A DNA stretch of 64,000 bases from Escherichia coli (GTDB lineage Bacteria > Pseudomonadota > Gammaproteobacteria > Enterobacterales > Enterobacteriaceae), in assembly GCF_048403405.1 (NCBI RefSeq), contig NZ_CP183129.1. The stretch is one strand, 5' to 3'. A program made the position numbers. Shown one piece after another: positions 40,101-55,100 of the stretch (its first letter is position 1; the number at the start of each line of letters is the position of its first letter).

Positions 40101-43100
40101 GGTCGAAGCAGGCAACTTGTGCTGGCGCAAACGGGTGAGAACCGTTTTTAGCAGTTGTTCTCCCGCCTGCTGTAAGCCCCACTGCCAGCACCAGTTTTGC
40201 CAGACCGGGGCAGGCATTCCTGAAAGGTATCCTGCCAGCACATCAAGGCGCTTTTCACTGTAGGGGGTGAGATAACAACCTGTAACGGCATCATCCAGTA
40301 AGAGCAATTCTGGCGTGTTAATTACCTGCAGACATTCGCGCCACATTTTTGCCAGTGCCGGAGCGTGCCAGCCACCGCAGACAACTAACACGTCGCCATT
40401 ATTTTGCTGCATCGCCCATCCAATCCAGCGGGCCATAAAGGCTTCGCGCTGACGATTGAGAGCATCTCCGGGGGAGTCGCCCCGCAGTTGGGCAAAATAG
40501 TGCGCAAGTGCAGAGGGTAATGCAGTTTGCTGGCTTTCATCTTCGAACAAGTGATCCCACAGGGTGTCGCTGTTATCCATGCGGGTGGCACGCAGCAGCA
40601 AGGTCTGGCTTTCCTCTTGCGTATCAGGCGAATCGTCCTCTTCTTCACTCTGCGCCCAGCAAGGCAAATCGATGAAGTAAGTTTGTGCCTGAATACGACG
40701 AGCGGCTTGTAGCGCCTGCCACTCCGGCGAAAATTCAGCAAATGGCGTCCAGGCACCACGCCCGGGGGCCGCACCGTCCTGATACTGGCAATAACTGTAA
40801 ATAGCTACCGGAAGCTGGTGAGCTAACAACAGTTCGTCTACCCGGTCATTAAAATCAGCCGGGCCTTCAATCAACACGTATCGTGGCCGCTGGCTTTCGA
40901 TTAACGATTTCACCAGCCGGGCGCAGGCCGGACTATGATGCCGGATGCCGACAATTAACGGCTCGCTCATGCATCTTTCCTCACGGCAGGCGGTGGCGAG
41001 CTTGATAATAAGCCTGCCAGTGAGCTTCTTTATGTGTGGCGACGCGCTGTTCGAAGTAACGGCGCAGACGCGCGCGATCTTCTTCGTTATCTTTGACGAT
41101 GGTTCCGGCAATACAGTCCACCAGGTCGGCAGGCTCCCCCGCGCGATTCGCTAAAAACCAGGCGCGGACACCCACAGCATGGGCCACGTTAACGGCTTCA
41201 GCGGTGGACATAATCGCTGTCAGTGTATCCATTGACGTTTTCTTTTCGCCGTTGGCACGCAGATCGCGGAACGTGCGCACCAGTAATTCCAGTACCGCGT
41301 CAGGCACTTTATGCGGAATACCGCTATGGGCCAGCAAACGCGCCGAAGCACTGGCAACCAGTTCCAGCTCCTGGGCGAAATCCATAATCGGAAAGACAGT
41401 TTCAAAATCGAAGCGACGCTTTAGCGCAGCACTCATTTCATTGACGCCGCGATCGCGGGTATTGGCAGTGGCAATAATATTAAAGCCTTCCCGCGCATAG
41501 AGCTGACTGGCTTCACCAGTGAGTTCCGGCACCGTCATTACCCTGTCAGAAAGCATACCTAACAGACAGTCTTGTACTTCCAGCGGTGTACGCGTTATCT
41601 CTTCAAAACGGACGATTTTGCCGTCGCGCATTCCCTGGTAAAGCGGGGCAGGGACCAGCGCTTCCGTTGATGGACCATGATTGATAAGCAGAGCGTAGTT
41701 CCAGCCGTACTTGATTTGATCTTCGGTGGTAGATGCGCCGCCCTGGATGGTTAACCCGGCATCGCCGCTAATAGCGGTTGCCAGTAATTCAGACAGGAGA
41801 GATTTTGCGGTGCCAGGTTCCCCCACCAACATCAAACCGCGCCCGGTGGCAAGAGTGACTAACATACGTTCGACAGCGGAGGGACTAATCACCACTTTAC
41901 GGCTAATATTTTGCGCGCTATCGCCAAGGATAAAAGCACGGGCCGCAGGCAAACTTAACTGCCAACCGGGCGGGCAAGGTGCGTTATCATTTTGTTTTAA
42001 TTTTGCCAGTTCATCGGCGTATAACACAGCAGCAGGCGGACGCTGCAGATGATTATTCTGCGGTGACATATATTCATCCCTGAAATGTATTAATGAAATA
42101 AACGATATTTTACGCGCAATAAATGTTTGGCGCATTAGTTGTTTGAGCGAAAAATATCTGGAAAGCAGATCACAGTAAATAAAAAAACCTGCTGGTGAGG
42201 CAGGTTCTTTTATTTACTATTTTCAGGCCCAACACCGCAGCCTGTGCAACATCGTGTTCCAACGAACGAATTATAACCATCGGTGGACCCCGTTGCAATT
42301 AAGATAATGAGATTTATAATCCAGACGGTTGGGACGTTGCGCCGGATCGGACCAATTTTAAGTCCTGGCTACCGGACGGGTGGTGCTGCAGGTGGTGCCC
42401 TGATCCGGAGTGCAACATCGTGGTCCAACATACGTAAACCAGTATCGACAGGCAGTGTAAGGGTAAGGTGCTGGTGTTGCGCTCCTTAATAAGGAGAGCG
42501 GATGGACACGCTGACACAAAAGTTAACCGTGCTCATTGCCGTACTGGAGCTATTAGTGGCTCTGTTACGGTTGATTGATTTGTTGAAGTAATGGGCAAAT
42601 TGAAACGCATCTAAGGGGGAATACCGTTTCCCCCTTTAATAAAGCTATTTTTCTATTTCTTGGTTGAATATATTCTGTAGTTCGCGATTAAAAATGGCTA
42701 TTACCGTTTCTGGTGATTCGCCCCGTAATTTTCGCTCATCAATAAACTCATCTCTTATATAAATCAACGCATCATTTATTAGCGGGTCGACATCCTCTCG
42801 ATCACGTTGATGAAATGTTGGATGTAGCCGGAATCGCTCCAGTCGGTAGACGGAACCTGTAAATAATTCAGAGCATTTATGGATCTCAAGTCTGAAGGAA
42901 AACGGATCTTCAGGTACAGGGACCTCATAATCGTAAATAGCAACCAGCTCTTTTTGCACGATCATCGCTTTTCCCGGTGGCAGGTCGTGTTAATAACGGG
43001 CAGTCGCATCACTGCCCGCTGTGTTTTAATGGAAAATGACGTCGGGTGCGCTTAACGCTTCACTCAAATCAAACACATCAAGTTCGGCAAAAGTGACAGA

Positions 43101-52100: not shown

Positions 52101-55100
52101 GGCGGCGGCATGGCGCGGGTTATTTGCCAGCCAATTAATGGCATCCTTGTAAGCCATTTTTTTCTGTAATCGCTGCGCCATTGGTAAGGCTAGTTCACTG
52201 GCCCCAATAAAGAGGGTGAATATCCACAGTCGTTGATGATCTCGTTGCAAGCAGGTCATAAACGCAGGAATGGCCGTACTACCAAAAACTGCCAGAATCT
52301 CTTTCTCACCTGAATATCGCTCCTCAATGATTATTTGGTTGAGAAATGAAATCGCCTGTTGTCCCGGTAAGTAACAAAGCGCAGATAGATTCCAGCTTTT
52401 GTTGGCATTGTTGTGATATTTCGCAAACTCAGCTTTTAGTGCTGGAAAATCAAAGCGCAACAAGGCATCAACAGCGCTTTGCGGTATATATTTTTTTTCA
52501 TGTAAGTCATCTTCGCAATGCAGCCATTCATTAAAACCTAATTGCCAAAGGATTTGTTGTTCTGGTGTAAAAGGAATGAAAGATGTCTCCCAGCTTTCTT
52601 TTTCAATTAGTGGCAGGTCGGTAAATAAGGTTTGCTGTGATGACTGATATTGCGCGATTTCACTGAATCTGGATATGTCAGTATGACTGATTAACTCTGT
52701 AATTCCTGGCGTGATGTCAGTGACTGCAGGGATGGGAAGCACCGGTAAATCAAATACGGGTATTACATTCGTTTTCTTATTTATTACCCACGGTGGAGCG
52801 ACAAACAGCTCCGGCAACATATCCGCAGTGGCGTATTCACATTCTTCAGCGACTAACTGAGTACGACATTCAGATAAGATGCCTGCCGCTTTAGCATTAA
52901 CCCAGGGAATGACGTCAGTGACTAAATCTGGCGTGGCGGTAATCAGTTTGACAAGCGCTTTACGCCACTGTGCATCTTCATGTATTGCCAGTAAAGTTGC
53001 ATAAGCGGCAAGAGCCGCAGCGGGATGTTTTTGACAGGCTTTGCTTAAGTATTCCAGGTGCTTTTTCTTGCCAATTACACCGAGGATCAGAATTTGAATC
53101 GCATCCGGGTGATTCGTTTTCCATAGCCATTTGACAAGATCTTCAGTCTCGCTGATGCGCTCGAAGAGATAAGTGGGATTGTCAGAATGCTCTTCCGTAA
53201 ACTCAAGAAGTATCCGGCTTACACCGCGCACCCCATTATTTGCCAGCAACATTGCCAGATAAGCGCGAAAATCATGATACAACGGTGGGAAGTCGTATTT
53301 TTCTGCTGTAGTCAGAGCGGCGTCATCGGTTACCACCAGTCTTAACCAGGTCATCGCCGGAACGTTTTGATCTGCATAACGTAGCGCCATAGCATTGGCA
53401 ATATCCGGGCGTTCAGGGAGCAGTAACGCCGCAAAAGGTTGCCGTGCTGGGGATAGCGAGGGAATAGCAGCGAGAACTTTATCTACACAGCGTTGCCACT
53501 CATCTTCTGAAGCGAGTGAAAGATGATGACATAGACGTTGATGCCAGTTCGGTAGTGATTCTGCTTTGAGATCAGGGGGAATAATGGTGGTGACGTCGGC
53601 TTTTACTGGTTTATATTTGAGTTGAAGAGCGAGAAGGGCGATTTCAACGGTAGTTTCCAGACCACAGCGAATGACTAAGTCATCGACCAGTTCATCTGTA
53701 GAGTAAGAGTTCCATAAATTCCAGAGCAATGCCGCATCAGATTGTATACTTCCTGTTTGTTGATTATTCAGAATTCGCCTTTGTAACTCGGCAAACGCCA
53801 GCTGCCAGTTTTCAGGATAAGAGCGGTAATTATTGTCGGGGTCATATGCCCTGGTGTTATTCGCGATGCGCTTCCATATTTGGCCATCTTTGTACAGATA
53901 ATTGATCTCTCTGGGGCGAGAGCGATGAGGAAAAGCAAATCGATTAATATCGCCAGTTACCGGAATGACTGCATCATCAGCCACCCATGGGCGTTTGTTT
54001 TTACTCTCAGGGGAGGTTTCAACTTCAGGAGTGGCTTTGGTGATGGGGGGGATATGCACGTTTGCTAAAGCATTTTCCACATAGCCTTTTTTCGTTTTCT
54101 CTGCGATCAGCTTAAGCTCCGCTTTTGCCGCTGCCGCAGCATCCGCAAAACTTTTTACCTGGTTTTGCCCTTTGGTGCCAACTTTTCCCCAACAGATATG
54201 CAACTCGTTTCCCTGTTGCTCCACCGCCCAGAATTTATGTGATTTTTCGTCCTGAAAGATAAAGTGCCTCATTCTGCATCCCTGTAATTTTATCCAGTTG
54301 AATGCTGATGCTACCAGTATTTATGCGGGTTAGAGAGAGACAAAATCGCAAGAAAACAACTTTAGGAATTTATAAAGAAAAGGCGCTGTCGATACAGCGC
54401 CTTGAAAGGAGATTATTTCACCTGATGACCCGGTTTAGCACCGGCATCCGGGCTTAGCAGGAAAATATCTTTCCCGCCAGGACCGGCAGCCATCACCATG
54501 CCTTCGGAGATACCGAAGCGCATTTTACGTGGTGCCAGGTTAGCCACCATAATGGTATGACGACCAATCAGTGCCTGCGGATCCGGGTAAGCAGAACGAA
54601 TGCCGGAGAAGACATTGCGCTTTTCACCGCCGAGATCCAGCGTCAGGCGCAGCAGTTTGTCAGAACCTTCAACAAACTCTGCGTTTTCGATCAACGCCAC
54701 GCGCAGGTCAACTTTGGCGAAGTCGTCAAAGGTGATGGTTTCCTGAATCGGATCATCTGCCAGTGGGCCAGTTACTGGCGTGGCAGCTGCTTTCACTTCT
54801 TCTTTAGACGCTTCCACCAGTGCTTCAACCTGCTTCATGTCAATACGGTTATACAGCGCCTTGAACGGATTCACTTTGTGGCCCAGCAGCGGTTGCTGGA
54901 TACCATGCCAGGTCAGTTCTGTATTGAGGAATGCTTCTGCACGCTCGGTCAGTTTCGGCAGTACCGGCTTCAGGTAAGTCATCAGCACGCGGAACAGGTT
55001 TATGCCCATCGAGCAAATTGCCTGCAGGTCGGCATCGCGTCCTTCCTGTTTCGCCACCACCCACGGAGCCTGTTCATCGACATAACGGTTAGCCAGATCT

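What the first reader, a model, noticed from the sequence alone, without database searches (positions are those of the whole stretch)
43026..54272. Tandem array of three giant paralogs (yehI, molR, molR-like), two with N-terminal WGR domains, all intact
Three consecutive 1210-1265-aa ORFs sit on the same strand, separated by only 9 and 12 nt. The two upstream genes begin with nearly identical WGR-domain sequences (KSHKFWAVEQQGNEL...WGKVGT...). All three share a conserved C-terminal module (FADYE..PPFRQL, then a divergent tail; molR and the third paralog both end in ITASELINDIE.LF). The central regions are diverged. In K-12 the molR locus is annotated as a fragmented pseudogene, whereas here both copies have uninterrupted frames. 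WGR domains are nucleic-acid-binding modules known from PARP enzymes; fused to a huge DUF4132 body they suggest a sensor or scaffold of unknown function. An intact triplicate array with divergent middles resembles diversified recognition modules.
Basis: partly seen in the sequence, partly recalled or inferred. Interest (0 to 1): 0.7.

Follow-up and report, generated by a model that had tools for sequence, protein, structure and literature searches.

The report
Three tandem MolR/YehI giant paralogs
Three intact 1,200-residue paralogs of the E. coli MolR/YehI family sit head to tail behind an SOS box and next to the yehLMPQ ATPase genes. The array is real and already annotated, and its function is still unknown.

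Summary
Three uninterrupted ORFs lie on the minus strand, 12 and 9 nt apart: g1 50475-54272, g2 46668-50462 and yehI 43026-46658. They are homologous over their full length (31-43% identity). g1 and g2 carry an N-terminal WGR domain and YehI lacks it. All three have a Pfam DUF4132 match, but it covers only about 180 residues near the C-terminus.

The window is E. coli and differs by one base from strain 4621, where RefSeq already annotates all three genes. g1 is present in about 30% of 5,426 complete genomes. K-12 'molR' is a g1::g2 chimera, made by a deletion between the WGR-coding repeats. The triplication is old: Klebsiella spallanzanii has the same three genes in the same order.

In about 52 of 74 loci from other species, a WGR-DUF4132 gene directly precedes yehL-yehM-yehP-yehQ homologues (MoxR-type AAA+ ATPase, DUF5682, vWA, SWIM). 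Massilia has independent arrays of up to 7 copies. In E. coli the N-terminal half varies by cassette-like replacement under purifying selection, and pseudogenes are common.

Best reading, which is inferred: these are SOS-inducible scaffold or adaptor subunits of the YehLMPQ machine that bind nucleic acid. The genes are known; the function is open.

The parts
54380..54403 (-). Terminator-like hairpin directly after metG. It separates metG from the array.
   Evidence: 10-bp stem with 6 G-C pairs, followed by TTCTTTAT. Sequence shown.
54280..54299 (-). LexA (SOS) box-like site AACTGGATAAAATTACAGGG, 27 nt before the g1 start codon.
   Evidence: it is the only CTG-N10-CAG site in the 64-kb window with at least 13 of 20 matches to the consensus, and it is identical in 8 E. 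coli alleles. molR is listed among LexA-regulated genes with a known SOS box in PMC6590174, Table 1.
50475..54272 (-). g1, the 'molR-like' extra paralog (1265 aa): WGR + alpha-solenoid + DUF4132 module. Absent from K-12.
   Evidence: At least 80% of the gene is present in 1629 of 5426 complete E. coli genomes. RefSeq WP_001215556.1 in strain 4621.
54072..54260 (-). WGR domain of g1 (residues 5-67).
   Evidence: PF05406, E 1.1e-17.
50727..51278 (-). Pfam DUF4132 match of g1 (residues 999-1182).
   Evidence: PF13569, E 8.9e-48.
46668..50462 (-). g2, the intact ortholog of the body of K-12 molR (1264 aa): WGR + alpha-solenoid + DUF4132 module.
   Evidence: It is 92.2% identical at nucleotide level to the K-12 molR pseudogene over its full length. 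The AF2 model of residues 100-1264 has pLDDT 89.9.
50256..50444 (-). WGR domain of g2 (residues 7-69). Its coding DNA is a ~195-nt repeat, 88% identical to the g1 copy, and is the substrate of the g1::g2 deletion.
48513..50213 (-). Variable N-terminal cassette of g2 (type A allele), with lower G+C than the 3' half.
46944..47501 (-). Pfam DUF4132 match of g2 (residues 988-1173).
   Evidence: PF13569, E 3e-51. The C-terminal model has pLDDT 95.6.
43026..46658 (-). yehI (1210 aa): the WGR-less, most divergent paralog.
   Evidence: Pfam finds DUF4132 only (E 1.2e-46) and no WGR. It is intact in 14 of 15 sampled genomes.
42645..42965 (-). yehK (106 aa), a small gene after yehI. Function unknown.
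   Evidence: It is frameshifted in some strains.
40981..42069 (-). yehL, a MoxR-family AAA+ ATPase (YehL subfamily).
   Evidence: annotation. Its best PDB sequence matches are Midasin AAA modules, E 3e-10. Its homolog in L010 hits PF07728 AAA_5 and bpMoxR. The YehL subfamily is named in PMC3893208.
38691..40970 (-). yehM, a DUF5682 protein.
   Evidence: Pfam E 1.5e-96.
37562..38698 (-). yehP, a vWA-domain protein.
   Evidence: annotation. It is 60-85% identical across classes of bacteria.
35565..37565 (-). yehQ, a SWIM zinc-finger protein.
   Evidence: annotation. The Pfam SWIM match is weak, E 1e-3.

Best explanation
SHOWN. The three ORFs are genuine, intact and anciently diverged paralogs of the bacterial MolR/YehI family. 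g1 and g2 have a WGR domain, then an alpha-solenoid of about 850 residues, then an alpha/beta C-terminal module of about 300 residues that contains Pfam DUF4132. YehI has lost the WGR domain. The genes are 12 and 9 nt apart with Shine-Dalgarno-like spacers. They follow the metG terminator and a conserved LexA-box-like site. They lie directly upstream of yehK and yehLMPQ.

Across bacteria the standard unit is one WGR-DUF4132 gene followed by yehL (MoxR-type AAA+ ATPase, midasin-like), yehM (DUF5682), yehP (vWA) and yehQ (SWIM). In Enterobacteriaceae the giant gene was triplicated before Escherichia and Klebsiella split. In E. coli the array then changes in four ways:
- deletion between the WGR-coding repeats, which produced the K-12-type g1::g2 chimera;
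- gene conversion at both ends of g1 and g2;
- replacement of the N-terminal half by divergent cassettes;
- frequent pseudogenisation of g1 and g2.

INFERRED. The giant proteins are the scaffold or adaptor subunits of a YehLMPQ remodelling machine. The conserved C-terminal half docks onto the conserved machine. The WGR domain and the variable solenoid half bind the target, probably damaged or otherwise abnormal DNA, or DNA-protein complexes. The AAA+/vWA pair then acts on that target using ATP. In E. coli the array is switched on by the SOS response. Having three paralogs would give three target specificities for one motor.
For: Anatomy and homology:
- ORFs, motifs and pairwise homology.
- Pfam domains.
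- Structure: the AF2 model has pLDDT 89.9 and pTM 0.82, with helical repeats followed by an alpha/beta module. The C-terminal model has pLDDT 95.6. Only generic HEAT/ARM matches appear in PDB.

Operon signals:
- Spacers with Shine-Dalgarno-like sequences.
- metG terminator.
- SOS-box-like site that is unique in the window and invariant in 8 alleles.
- molR is in the published LexA regulon with a known box.
- A BglJ-RcsB-activated promoter has been mapped upstream of molR.

Linkage to the machine:
- yehL-M-P-Q homologs directly follow the giant gene in about 52 of 74 loci, including Actinobacteria, Acidobacteria and Deltaproteobacteria.
- A histidine-kinase-fused family member also sits next to an AAA_5 gene.
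- The best PDB matches of YehL are Midasin AAA modules.

Division into a docking half and a variable half:
- Family conservation is 0.5-0.73 for residues 650-1200 and 0.14-0.4 for residues 100-650.
- The invariant residues lie in the C-terminal half.

Copy-number changes of the adaptor only:
- Klebsiella has three 1:1 orthologs.
- Massilia has independent arrays of 4-7 copies.

DNA-damage link in a second phylum:
- The D. radiodurans WGR protein DR2173 and DUF4132 protein DRA0166 are induced when DdrO is depleted.

Evolution within E. coli.
Against: - No experiment links MolR/YehI to YehLMPQ or to DNA. Physical interaction, DNA binding by this WGR domain and SOS induction in a three-gene strain were not testable here.
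- An E. coli-type LexA box was found upstream of none of about 66 homologs in other taxa. SOS control may therefore be specific to Escherichia.
- yehLMPQ has no LexA-like site of its own. It is separated from yehK by a 575-nt spacer that holds a type I toxin-antitoxin locus and terminator-like hairpins. Co-expression with the array is unproven.
- About a quarter of the loci, mostly extra copies in Massilia, have no adjacent yehL.
- g1 and g2 are often pseudogenes, and K-12 lives without a functional molR. The WGR paralogs are therefore dispensable in the laboratory and in many lineages.
Confidence: 0.45

Rival explanations
1. It is an anti-phage or other conflict (immunity) system. The giant WGR-solenoid proteins would be diversifying sensors of invader molecules, and YehLMPQ the NTP-driven effector or regulator. 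This would resemble the vWA-MoxR conflict systems proposed from comparative genomics.
For: - Cassette-type polymorphism of the N-terminal half.
- Presence/absence and copy-number variation.
- Frequent pseudogenes, and IS and transposon insertions.
- Independent tandem expansions of up to 7 copies.
- A type I toxin-antitoxin locus next door.
- Lower G+C in the variable cassette than in the conserved half.
Against: - None of the eight proteins matches any of 5,027 PADLOC models.
- No homolog in 50,697 phage genomes. Homologs are rare on plasmids, and those are mostly megaplasmids.
- The locus sits at a fixed chromosomal position between metG and yehR in every E. coli genome examined.
- YehL and YehP are 60-77% identical between E. 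coli and Betaproteobacteria or Actinobacteria, which is unusually conserved for immunity genes.
- dN/dS is 0.1-0.45 in every segment.
Confidence: 0.2
2. They are transcription factors that regulate molybdate metabolism, as the legacy names 'MolR' and 'molybdate metabolism regulator' say.
For: - The name is propagated in UniProt/AFDB entries.
- WGR is treated as a DNA-binding domain of 'MolR-like TFs' in PMC7824862.
Against: - The conserved neighbours are yehLMPQ, not molybdenum genes.
- The gene is a pseudogene in K-12.
- In D. radiodurans the molybdate genes were not co-regulated with the WGR/DUF4132 genes.
- A 1,265-residue solenoid protein with only one small nucleic-acid-binding domain is not built like a bacterial transcription factor.
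Confidence: 0.03
3. The two upstream paralogs are redundant copies drifting toward loss. Only YehI, or none of the three, matters, and the array's intact state in this strain is incidental.
For: - g1 and/or g2 are broken in 3 of 7 sampled three-gene genomes, and the chimeric gene is broken in 2 of 7 two-gene genomes.
- g1 is missing from about 70% of genomes.
- dN/dS of g1 and g2 (0.23-0.28) is higher than that of yehI (0.12-0.18) and far above metG (0.01-0.04).
Against: - dN/dS is well below 1 over 1,265 codons, and between alleles whose dS is 0.3-0.7.
- The three genes have been kept as 1:1 orthologs since before the Escherichia-Klebsiella split.
- g2 is the copy most like the single gene of other bacteria.
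- The SOS-box-like site is invariant.
Confidence: 0.12
4. The giant proteins are substrates or clients of the YehL-YehP chaperone pair, not adaptors. MoxR-vWA pairs mature specific client complexes. The solenoid protein would be the product that needs remodelling or cofactor insertion.
For: - Known MoxR-vWA pairs act on dedicated clients encoded nearby, as summarised in PMC3893208.
- The gene linkage is strict.
- The C-terminal half is highly conserved.
Against: - No catalytic or cofactor-binding domain is detected in the giant proteins.
- Several divergent 'clients' in tandem are less easily explained than several adaptors.
Confidence: 0.15

Closest known systems
MolR/YehI family (Pfam DUF4132, usually with N-terminal WGR; UniProt 'molybdate metabolism regulator')
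   Same: All three ORFs are members. They have full-length homology to thousands of family proteins: 5,892 clusters at 50% identity. They have the DUF4132 match, and g1 and g2 also have WGR. RefSeq already names them in strain 4621, which differs from the window by one base in 13.9 kb.
   Different: Nothing differs in kind. This strain carries the three-gene form, which includes g1 and so occurs in at most about 30% of E. coli genomes. K-12 carries the two-gene form with a pseudogene.
WGR domains of eukaryotic PARP1-3 (DNA-break sensing modules)
   Same: The same Pfam family, PF05406, is matched at E 1e-17. A weak direct sequence match to the PARP3 WGR appears in PDB. The E. coli gene is also induced by DNA damage, according to the literature.
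   Different: There is no PARP catalytic or helical regulatory domain. Here WGR is fused to a solenoid and DUF4132. DNA binding by the bacterial domain is untested.
MoxR AAA+/vWA chaperone pairs (RavA-ViaA, CbbQ-CbbO, NorQ-NorD) and eukaryotic Midasin/Rea1 (AAA_5 ring plus MIDAS domain)
   Same: The adjacent yehL and yehP encode a MoxR-family AAA_5 ATPase and a vWA protein. The best solved sequence matches of YehL are Midasin AAA modules.
   Different: The YehL subfamily comes with three further conserved partners: DUF5682, a SWIM protein and the WGR-DUF4132 giant protein. No client or activity is known for it.
HEAT/ARM alpha-solenoid scaffolds (importin-beta, PP2A A subunit, SF3B1)
   Same: The predicted body is a long helical-repeat solenoid, and these proteins are the only PDB matches.
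   Different: The matches are generic (E >= 1e-3, TM about 0.1). They show a resemblance in architecture and give no evidence of homology.
vWA-MoxR 'ternary' conflict systems proposed by comparative genomics (recalled from Kaur, Burroughs, Iyer and Aravind, eLife 2020; the paper was not retrieved here)
   Same: Both combine a MoxR ATPase and a vWA protein with a large variable partner, and both show copy-number and sequence variation.
   Different: The partner proteins are different. None of the eight proteins matches a PADLOC model. The locus is chromosomally fixed and the motor is highly conserved.

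Membership tests
MolR/YehI (DUF4132) family | Significant match to Pfam PF13569 (DUF4132) near the C-terminus | tested here: met
   E 8.9e-48 for g1, 3e-51 for g2 and 1.2e-46 for YehI.
MolR/YehI (DUF4132) family | N-terminal WGR domain (PF05406) | tested here: met
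   g1 and g2 both match at E 1.1e-17. YehI has none. 78 of 124 aligned family members show the KFW...G[RK][IV]G motif, so WGR is typical of the family without being universal.
MolR/YehI (DUF4132) family | Full-length homology, including the conserved C-terminal half and the terminal S-E-L helix | tested here: met
   The Ser-Glu pair in the C-terminal tail (aligned to g2 S1253/E1254) is invariant in the 58-sequence alignment, which includes all three window proteins.
MolR/YehI (DUF4132) family | Gene linkage to yehL-yehM-yehP-yehQ | tested here: met
   Present in the window and in about 52 of 74 loci from other species.
LexA (SOS) regulon of E. coli | SOS box (CTG-N10-CAG with an AT-rich centre) in the promoter or leader | tested here: met
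   AACTGGATAAAATTACAGGG at 54280-54299, with 13 of 20 matches to the consensus. It is unique in the window and invariant in 8 alleles. molR is listed with a known SOS box in PMC6590174.
LexA (SOS) regulon of E. coli | LexA-dependent induction after DNA damage | not testable with these tools
   The only support is the literature on K-12 molR. No expression data exist for a three-gene strain.
MoxR-vWA chaperone/remodelling systems (YehL subfamily) | Adjacent MoxR-type AAA+ gene and vWA gene | tested here: met
   Annotation, AAA_5/bpMoxR hit on the YehL homolog, Midasin matches and the subfamily named in PMC3893208.
MoxR-vWA chaperone/remodelling systems (YehL subfamily) | Physical and functional coupling of the giant protein to the ATPase/vWA pair | not testable with these tools
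   No tool for predicting complexes was available, and no experiment was found.
PARP-type DNA-damage sensors | WGR combined with an ADP-ribosyltransferase catalytic domain | tested here: not met
   No PARP catalytic domain was found by Pfam, NCBIfam or PDB searches.
Known anti-phage defence systems (PADLOC-DB 2.0) | Match of any component to a defence-system model | tested here: not met
   No hits at E <= 0.01 for g1, g2, YehI, YehK, YehL, YehM, YehP or YehQ.
Diversifying (positively selected) recognition proteins | dN/dS > 1, or clearly raised, in the variable region | tested here: not met
   Segment-wise dN/dS is 0.1-0.45. The variable segments have saturated dS, which points to old or imported cassettes and away from rapid point-mutation diversification. 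Site-level models were not run.
Molybdate-responsive transcription regulators | Link to molybdenum genes through neighbourhood or co-regulation | tested here: not met
   No molybdenum gene lies in the window neighbourhood, and the conserved neighbours in the related loci are yehLMPQ homologs. The D. radiodurans study saw no co-regulation.

The most novel reading that the evidence does not exclude
The WGR-solenoid-DUF4132 proteins are interchangeable target-recognition adaptors. They are swapped as cassettes and multiplied in tandem. They serve a widespread, uncharacterised, midasin-like AAA+/vWA/SWIM/DUF5682 machine that is induced by DNA damage and acts on abnormal DNA or DNA-protein complexes. 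That would make it a previously unrecognised bacterial genome-maintenance or nucleic-acid-surveillance system with a PARP-like sensor domain.
Probability: 0.25. Interest if true: 0.75.

Novelty: already known. Interest (0 to 1): 0.4.

Why it matters
The genes are not new. They are annotated in hundreds of genomes and belong to a Pfam family with thousands of members. Even so, the family, its four conserved partners (YehL, YehM, YehP, YehQ) and the whole YehL branch of MoxR ATPases have no known function. No functional study was found in the literature searched here.

This strain offers an intact three-adaptor version of a system whose WGR-bearing gene is broken in K-12. That may be one reason standard E. 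coli genetics has not revealed what it does.

Several features together make the question testable:
- an SOS box;
- a PARP-type WGR domain;
- a midasin-like motor;
- a conserved docking half joined to a cassette-variable half.

If the adaptor model holds, it would assign a role to a five-gene module found from Proteobacteria to Actinobacteria and Acidobacteria. It would also explain why the 'DUF4132 region' is a site of deletion, IS insertion and resistance-transposon insertion in clinical E. coli.

Tried and rejected
- **Pfam on full-length proteins:** Truncated pieces were used instead.
- **NCBIfam:** the only hit was the WGR segment against the LIC_11051 fibronectin-binding model, at 59-61 bits against a cut-off of 1000. 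This is not membership.
- **PADLOC:** no hits.
- **PDB sequence search:** only WGR-level matches for g2 (2ra8, PARP3) and none for YehM, YehP or YehQ.
- **LexA boxes outside E. coli:** none found upstream of homologs in other taxa. I therefore dropped the idea that SOS control is a family-wide trait.
- **Mobility:** phage genomes hold no homolog and plasmids almost none. This argues against a mobile defence island.
- **Literature:** searches for DUF4132, DUF5682, yehL/M/P/Q and WGR with MoxR, vWA and SWIM found no functional study.
- **Technical failures:** the first AF2 submission was too large, and P0022 was not on record for a context look-up.
- **Chance match:** the perfect CTGT-N8-ACAG at 9011-9026 lies inside an ABC-transporter coding sequence and is expected by chance.

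Full report
**1.

- The ORF list shows three uninterrupted minus-strand frames: 50475-54272 (g1, 1265 aa), 46668-50462 (g2, 1264 aa) and 43026-46658 (yehI, 1210 aa).
- The gaps are 12 and 9 nt. Each contains a Shine-Dalgarno-like sequence (TAA-AAGGACTTTGCA-ATG and TAA-GGAAAGAGC-ATG).
- BLASTP aligns the proteins end to end: g1/g2 43%, g2/yehI 38%, g1/yehI 31%.
- Pfam finds WGR at the N-terminus of g1 and g2 (E 1.1e-17) and none in YehI. It finds DUF4132 in all three.
- The DUF4132 match covers only about 180 residues, at roughly 990-1180. The 'huge DUF4132 body' in the finding is therefore wrong.

**2. Where the window comes from and what is already annotated**

- The 13.9-kb stretch from metG to yehK differs by one base (window 52170) from E. 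coli strain 4621, a blood isolate.
- RefSeq annotates the genes there as 'DUF4132 domain-containing protein', 'WGR and DUF4132 domain-containing protein' and 'YehI'.
- The gene order is apbC < metG > g1 > g2 > yehI > yehK > yehL > yehM > yehP > yehQ > yehR.
- A paper on ST131 already treats the three genes as the 'metG/DUF4132/yeh region'. It reports a blaCTX-M-15 transposon inserted there in one sublineage.

**3. Copy number and state in E. coli**

- At least 80% of g1 is present in 1629 of 5426 complete genomes, with alleles from 87% to 100% nucleotide identity.
- Most other genomes have the K-12-like two-gene form.
- The K-12 molR pseudogene matches g2 over its whole length at 92.2%. Its upstream region and first codons (MRHFIY...) are of g1 type, and from about nt 170 onward it is of g2 type.
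- All seven two-gene genomes sampled, K-12 included, share this chimeric start.
- g1 and g2 share a ~195-nt WGR-coding repeat that is 88% identical. Klebsiella spallanzanii has 1:1 orthologs of all three genes in the same order. The two-gene form is therefore a deletion derivative of an older three-gene array.
- In 15 sampled genomes (including strain 4621, which stands for the window), yehI was intact in 14. g1 and/or g2 were broken in O157:H7, AR_0058 (IS1 insertion) and SC455. The chimeric gene was broken in K-12 and 8GC and intact in five others.
- Intactness is therefore common. The K-12 pseudogene is a lineage-specific feature.

**4. How the genes vary**

- Against other E. coli alleles, dN/dS is 0.23-0.26 for g1, 0.24-0.28 for g2 and 0.12-0.18 for yehI. 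The neighbours are far lower: metG 0.01-0.04 and apbC 0.
- The variation is mosaic. g1 residues 451-780 and g2 residues 76-650 differ deeply between alleles (33-75% amino-acid identity, dS near or beyond saturation). The C-terminal halves are 91-97% identical.
- The variable part of g2 exists as at least three cassette types, found at 80% coverage or more in 3387, 684 and 410 genomes.
- This part of g2 has lower G+C (0.44-0.46) than the 3' half (0.55).
- No segment exceeds dN/dS 0.5. The pattern fits replacement by old or imported segments under purifying selection, and does not fit rapid diversification by point mutation.
- Between g1 and g2, dS is about 0.68 in the WGR region and 0.67 in the last 20 codons, but above 1.3 or saturated elsewhere. 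This indicates gene conversion at both gene ends.

**5. The family and its conserved neighbours**

- A search of 1.84 billion representative proteins found 5,892 clusters at E <= 1e-3 and 2,590 at E <= 1e-30.
- Alignments show a variable N-terminal half and a strongly conserved C-terminal half. Most members begin with WGR, and a Ser-Glu pair is invariant in the last helix.
- In 74 loci from other species, yehL, yehM, yehP and yehQ homologs follow the giant gene directly in about 52. These include Mycolicibacterium, Holophagales, Trichlorobacter and a deltaproteobacterium.
- YehL is 71-77% identical and YehP 60-70% identical to the E. coli proteins in most loci from other classes and phyla. The giant protein and YehQ are far less conserved.
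- Most species have one giant gene. Klebsiella has three, and Massilia and Duganella have independent arrays of 3-7 copies.
- One family member is fused to a histidine kinase and still sits next to an AAA_5 gene.
- g2 is the copy closest to the single gene of other bacteria. YehI is the most divergent copy.

**6. Structure**

- AlphaFold2 with a 58-sequence alignment gave a confident model of g2 residues 100-1264 (pLDDT 89.9, pTM 0.82). It shows about 850 residues of helical repeats followed by an alpha/beta C-terminal module.
- The C-terminal module modelled alone has pLDDT 95.6.
- Foldseek against PDB returned only generic HEAT/ARM solenoids.
- AFDB50 returned only family members, with names inherited from 'molybdate metabolism regulator'.
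- The best solved sequence matches of YehL are the AAA modules of Midasin. YehM is DUF5682, and YehQ has a weak SWIM match.

**7. Regulation and functional hints**

- A terminator-like hairpin follows metG.
- Twenty-seven nt before the g1 start codon lies AACTGGATAAAATTACAGGG. It is the only site in the window with CTG-N10-CAG and at least 13 of 20 matches to the LexA consensus. It is identical in eight alleles whose coding sequences differ by up to 12%.
- molR is listed among E. coli LexA-regulated genes with a known SOS box. Its promoter is activated by BglJ-RcsB.
- In Deinococcus radiodurans, a WGR protein and a DUF4132 protein are strongly induced when the damage-response repressor DdrO is depleted.
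- No E. coli-type LexA box was found upstream of homologs in about 66 loci from other taxa.
- No component matches a PADLOC model. No homolog occurs in 50,697 phage genomes, and plasmid copies are rare.

**8. Interpretation**

Shown:
- The three genes are a real, ancient paralog array of the MolR/YehI family.
- They are arranged like an operon behind an SOS box.
- They are tied by conserved gene order to yehLMPQ.
- They have a conserved C-terminal half and a variable N-terminal half.
- The array is reshaped in E. coli by recombination between its own repeats.

Inferred, with confidence of about 0.45:
- The giant proteins are adaptor or scaffold subunits. They dock onto the YehLMPQ AAA+/vWA machine through the conserved half.
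- They bind targets, most likely abnormal DNA, through WGR and the variable solenoid.
- Three paralogs would give three specificities for one motor.

Rivals:
- A conflict or defence system (0.2).
- The giant proteins are clients of the chaperone pair, not adaptors (0.15).
- The upstream copies are drifting toward loss (0.12).
- The legacy molybdate-regulator reading (0.03).

**9. Verdict**

The finding is accurate but describes genes that are already annotated. The function of the family and its partner machine is a real open question, and this strain is a good place to test it. I rate interest as moderate (0.4) and novelty as 'already known'.

Noticed in passing
[not shown]
   Followed up: partly
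window 21770-21850 (+): Rfam match to the Peptidase-S11 cis-regulatory RNA motif (72.8 bits, gathering score 34.8). It is unrelated to the finding.
   Followed up: no
L005 14549-15246; L004; L006; and PMC9334617: The locus is a recurrent site of disruption. IS1 sits inside g2 in strain AR_0058. g2 is broken in SC455. g1 has a stop and g2 a frameshift in O157:H7 Vac_07.1. The resistance transposon TnMB1860 (blaCTX-M-15) is inserted in the region in an ST131 sublineage.
   Followed up: partly
L049 (Massilia mucilaginosa), L036, L059, L075, L077: Massilia and Duganella genomes carry tandem arrays of 4-7 WGR-DUF4132 genes, plus further copies elsewhere in the genome. These expansions are independent of the enterobacterial triplication.
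   Followed up: partly
L010 6883-12213: A 1776-aa family member from a metagenome is fused to histidine-kinase domains (HATPase_c, and a faint HisKA hit). It follows a response-regulator gene and precedes a MoxR AAA_5 gene. This suggests that some versions are wired into two-component signalling.
   Followed up: no
window 42645-42965 (yehK) and L003, L005, L006: yehK (106 aa, function unknown) is intact here. It is annotated as frameshifted in three of the sampled three-gene genomes.
   Followed up: no
window 42997-43018: A G+C-rich palindrome, GCGGGCAGTGATGCGACTGCCCG, lies in the 60-nt yehI-yehK spacer. It could be an attenuator or terminator after yehI, although the T-run is weak.
   Followed up: no
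window 9011-9026: A perfect CTGT-N8-ACAG (CTGTTAGGGATAACAG) lies inside an ABC-transporter ATPase coding sequence. Shuffles of the window give a mean of 0.65 such sites, and 45 of 100 shuffles had at least one, so I take it as a chance match.
   Followed up: yes
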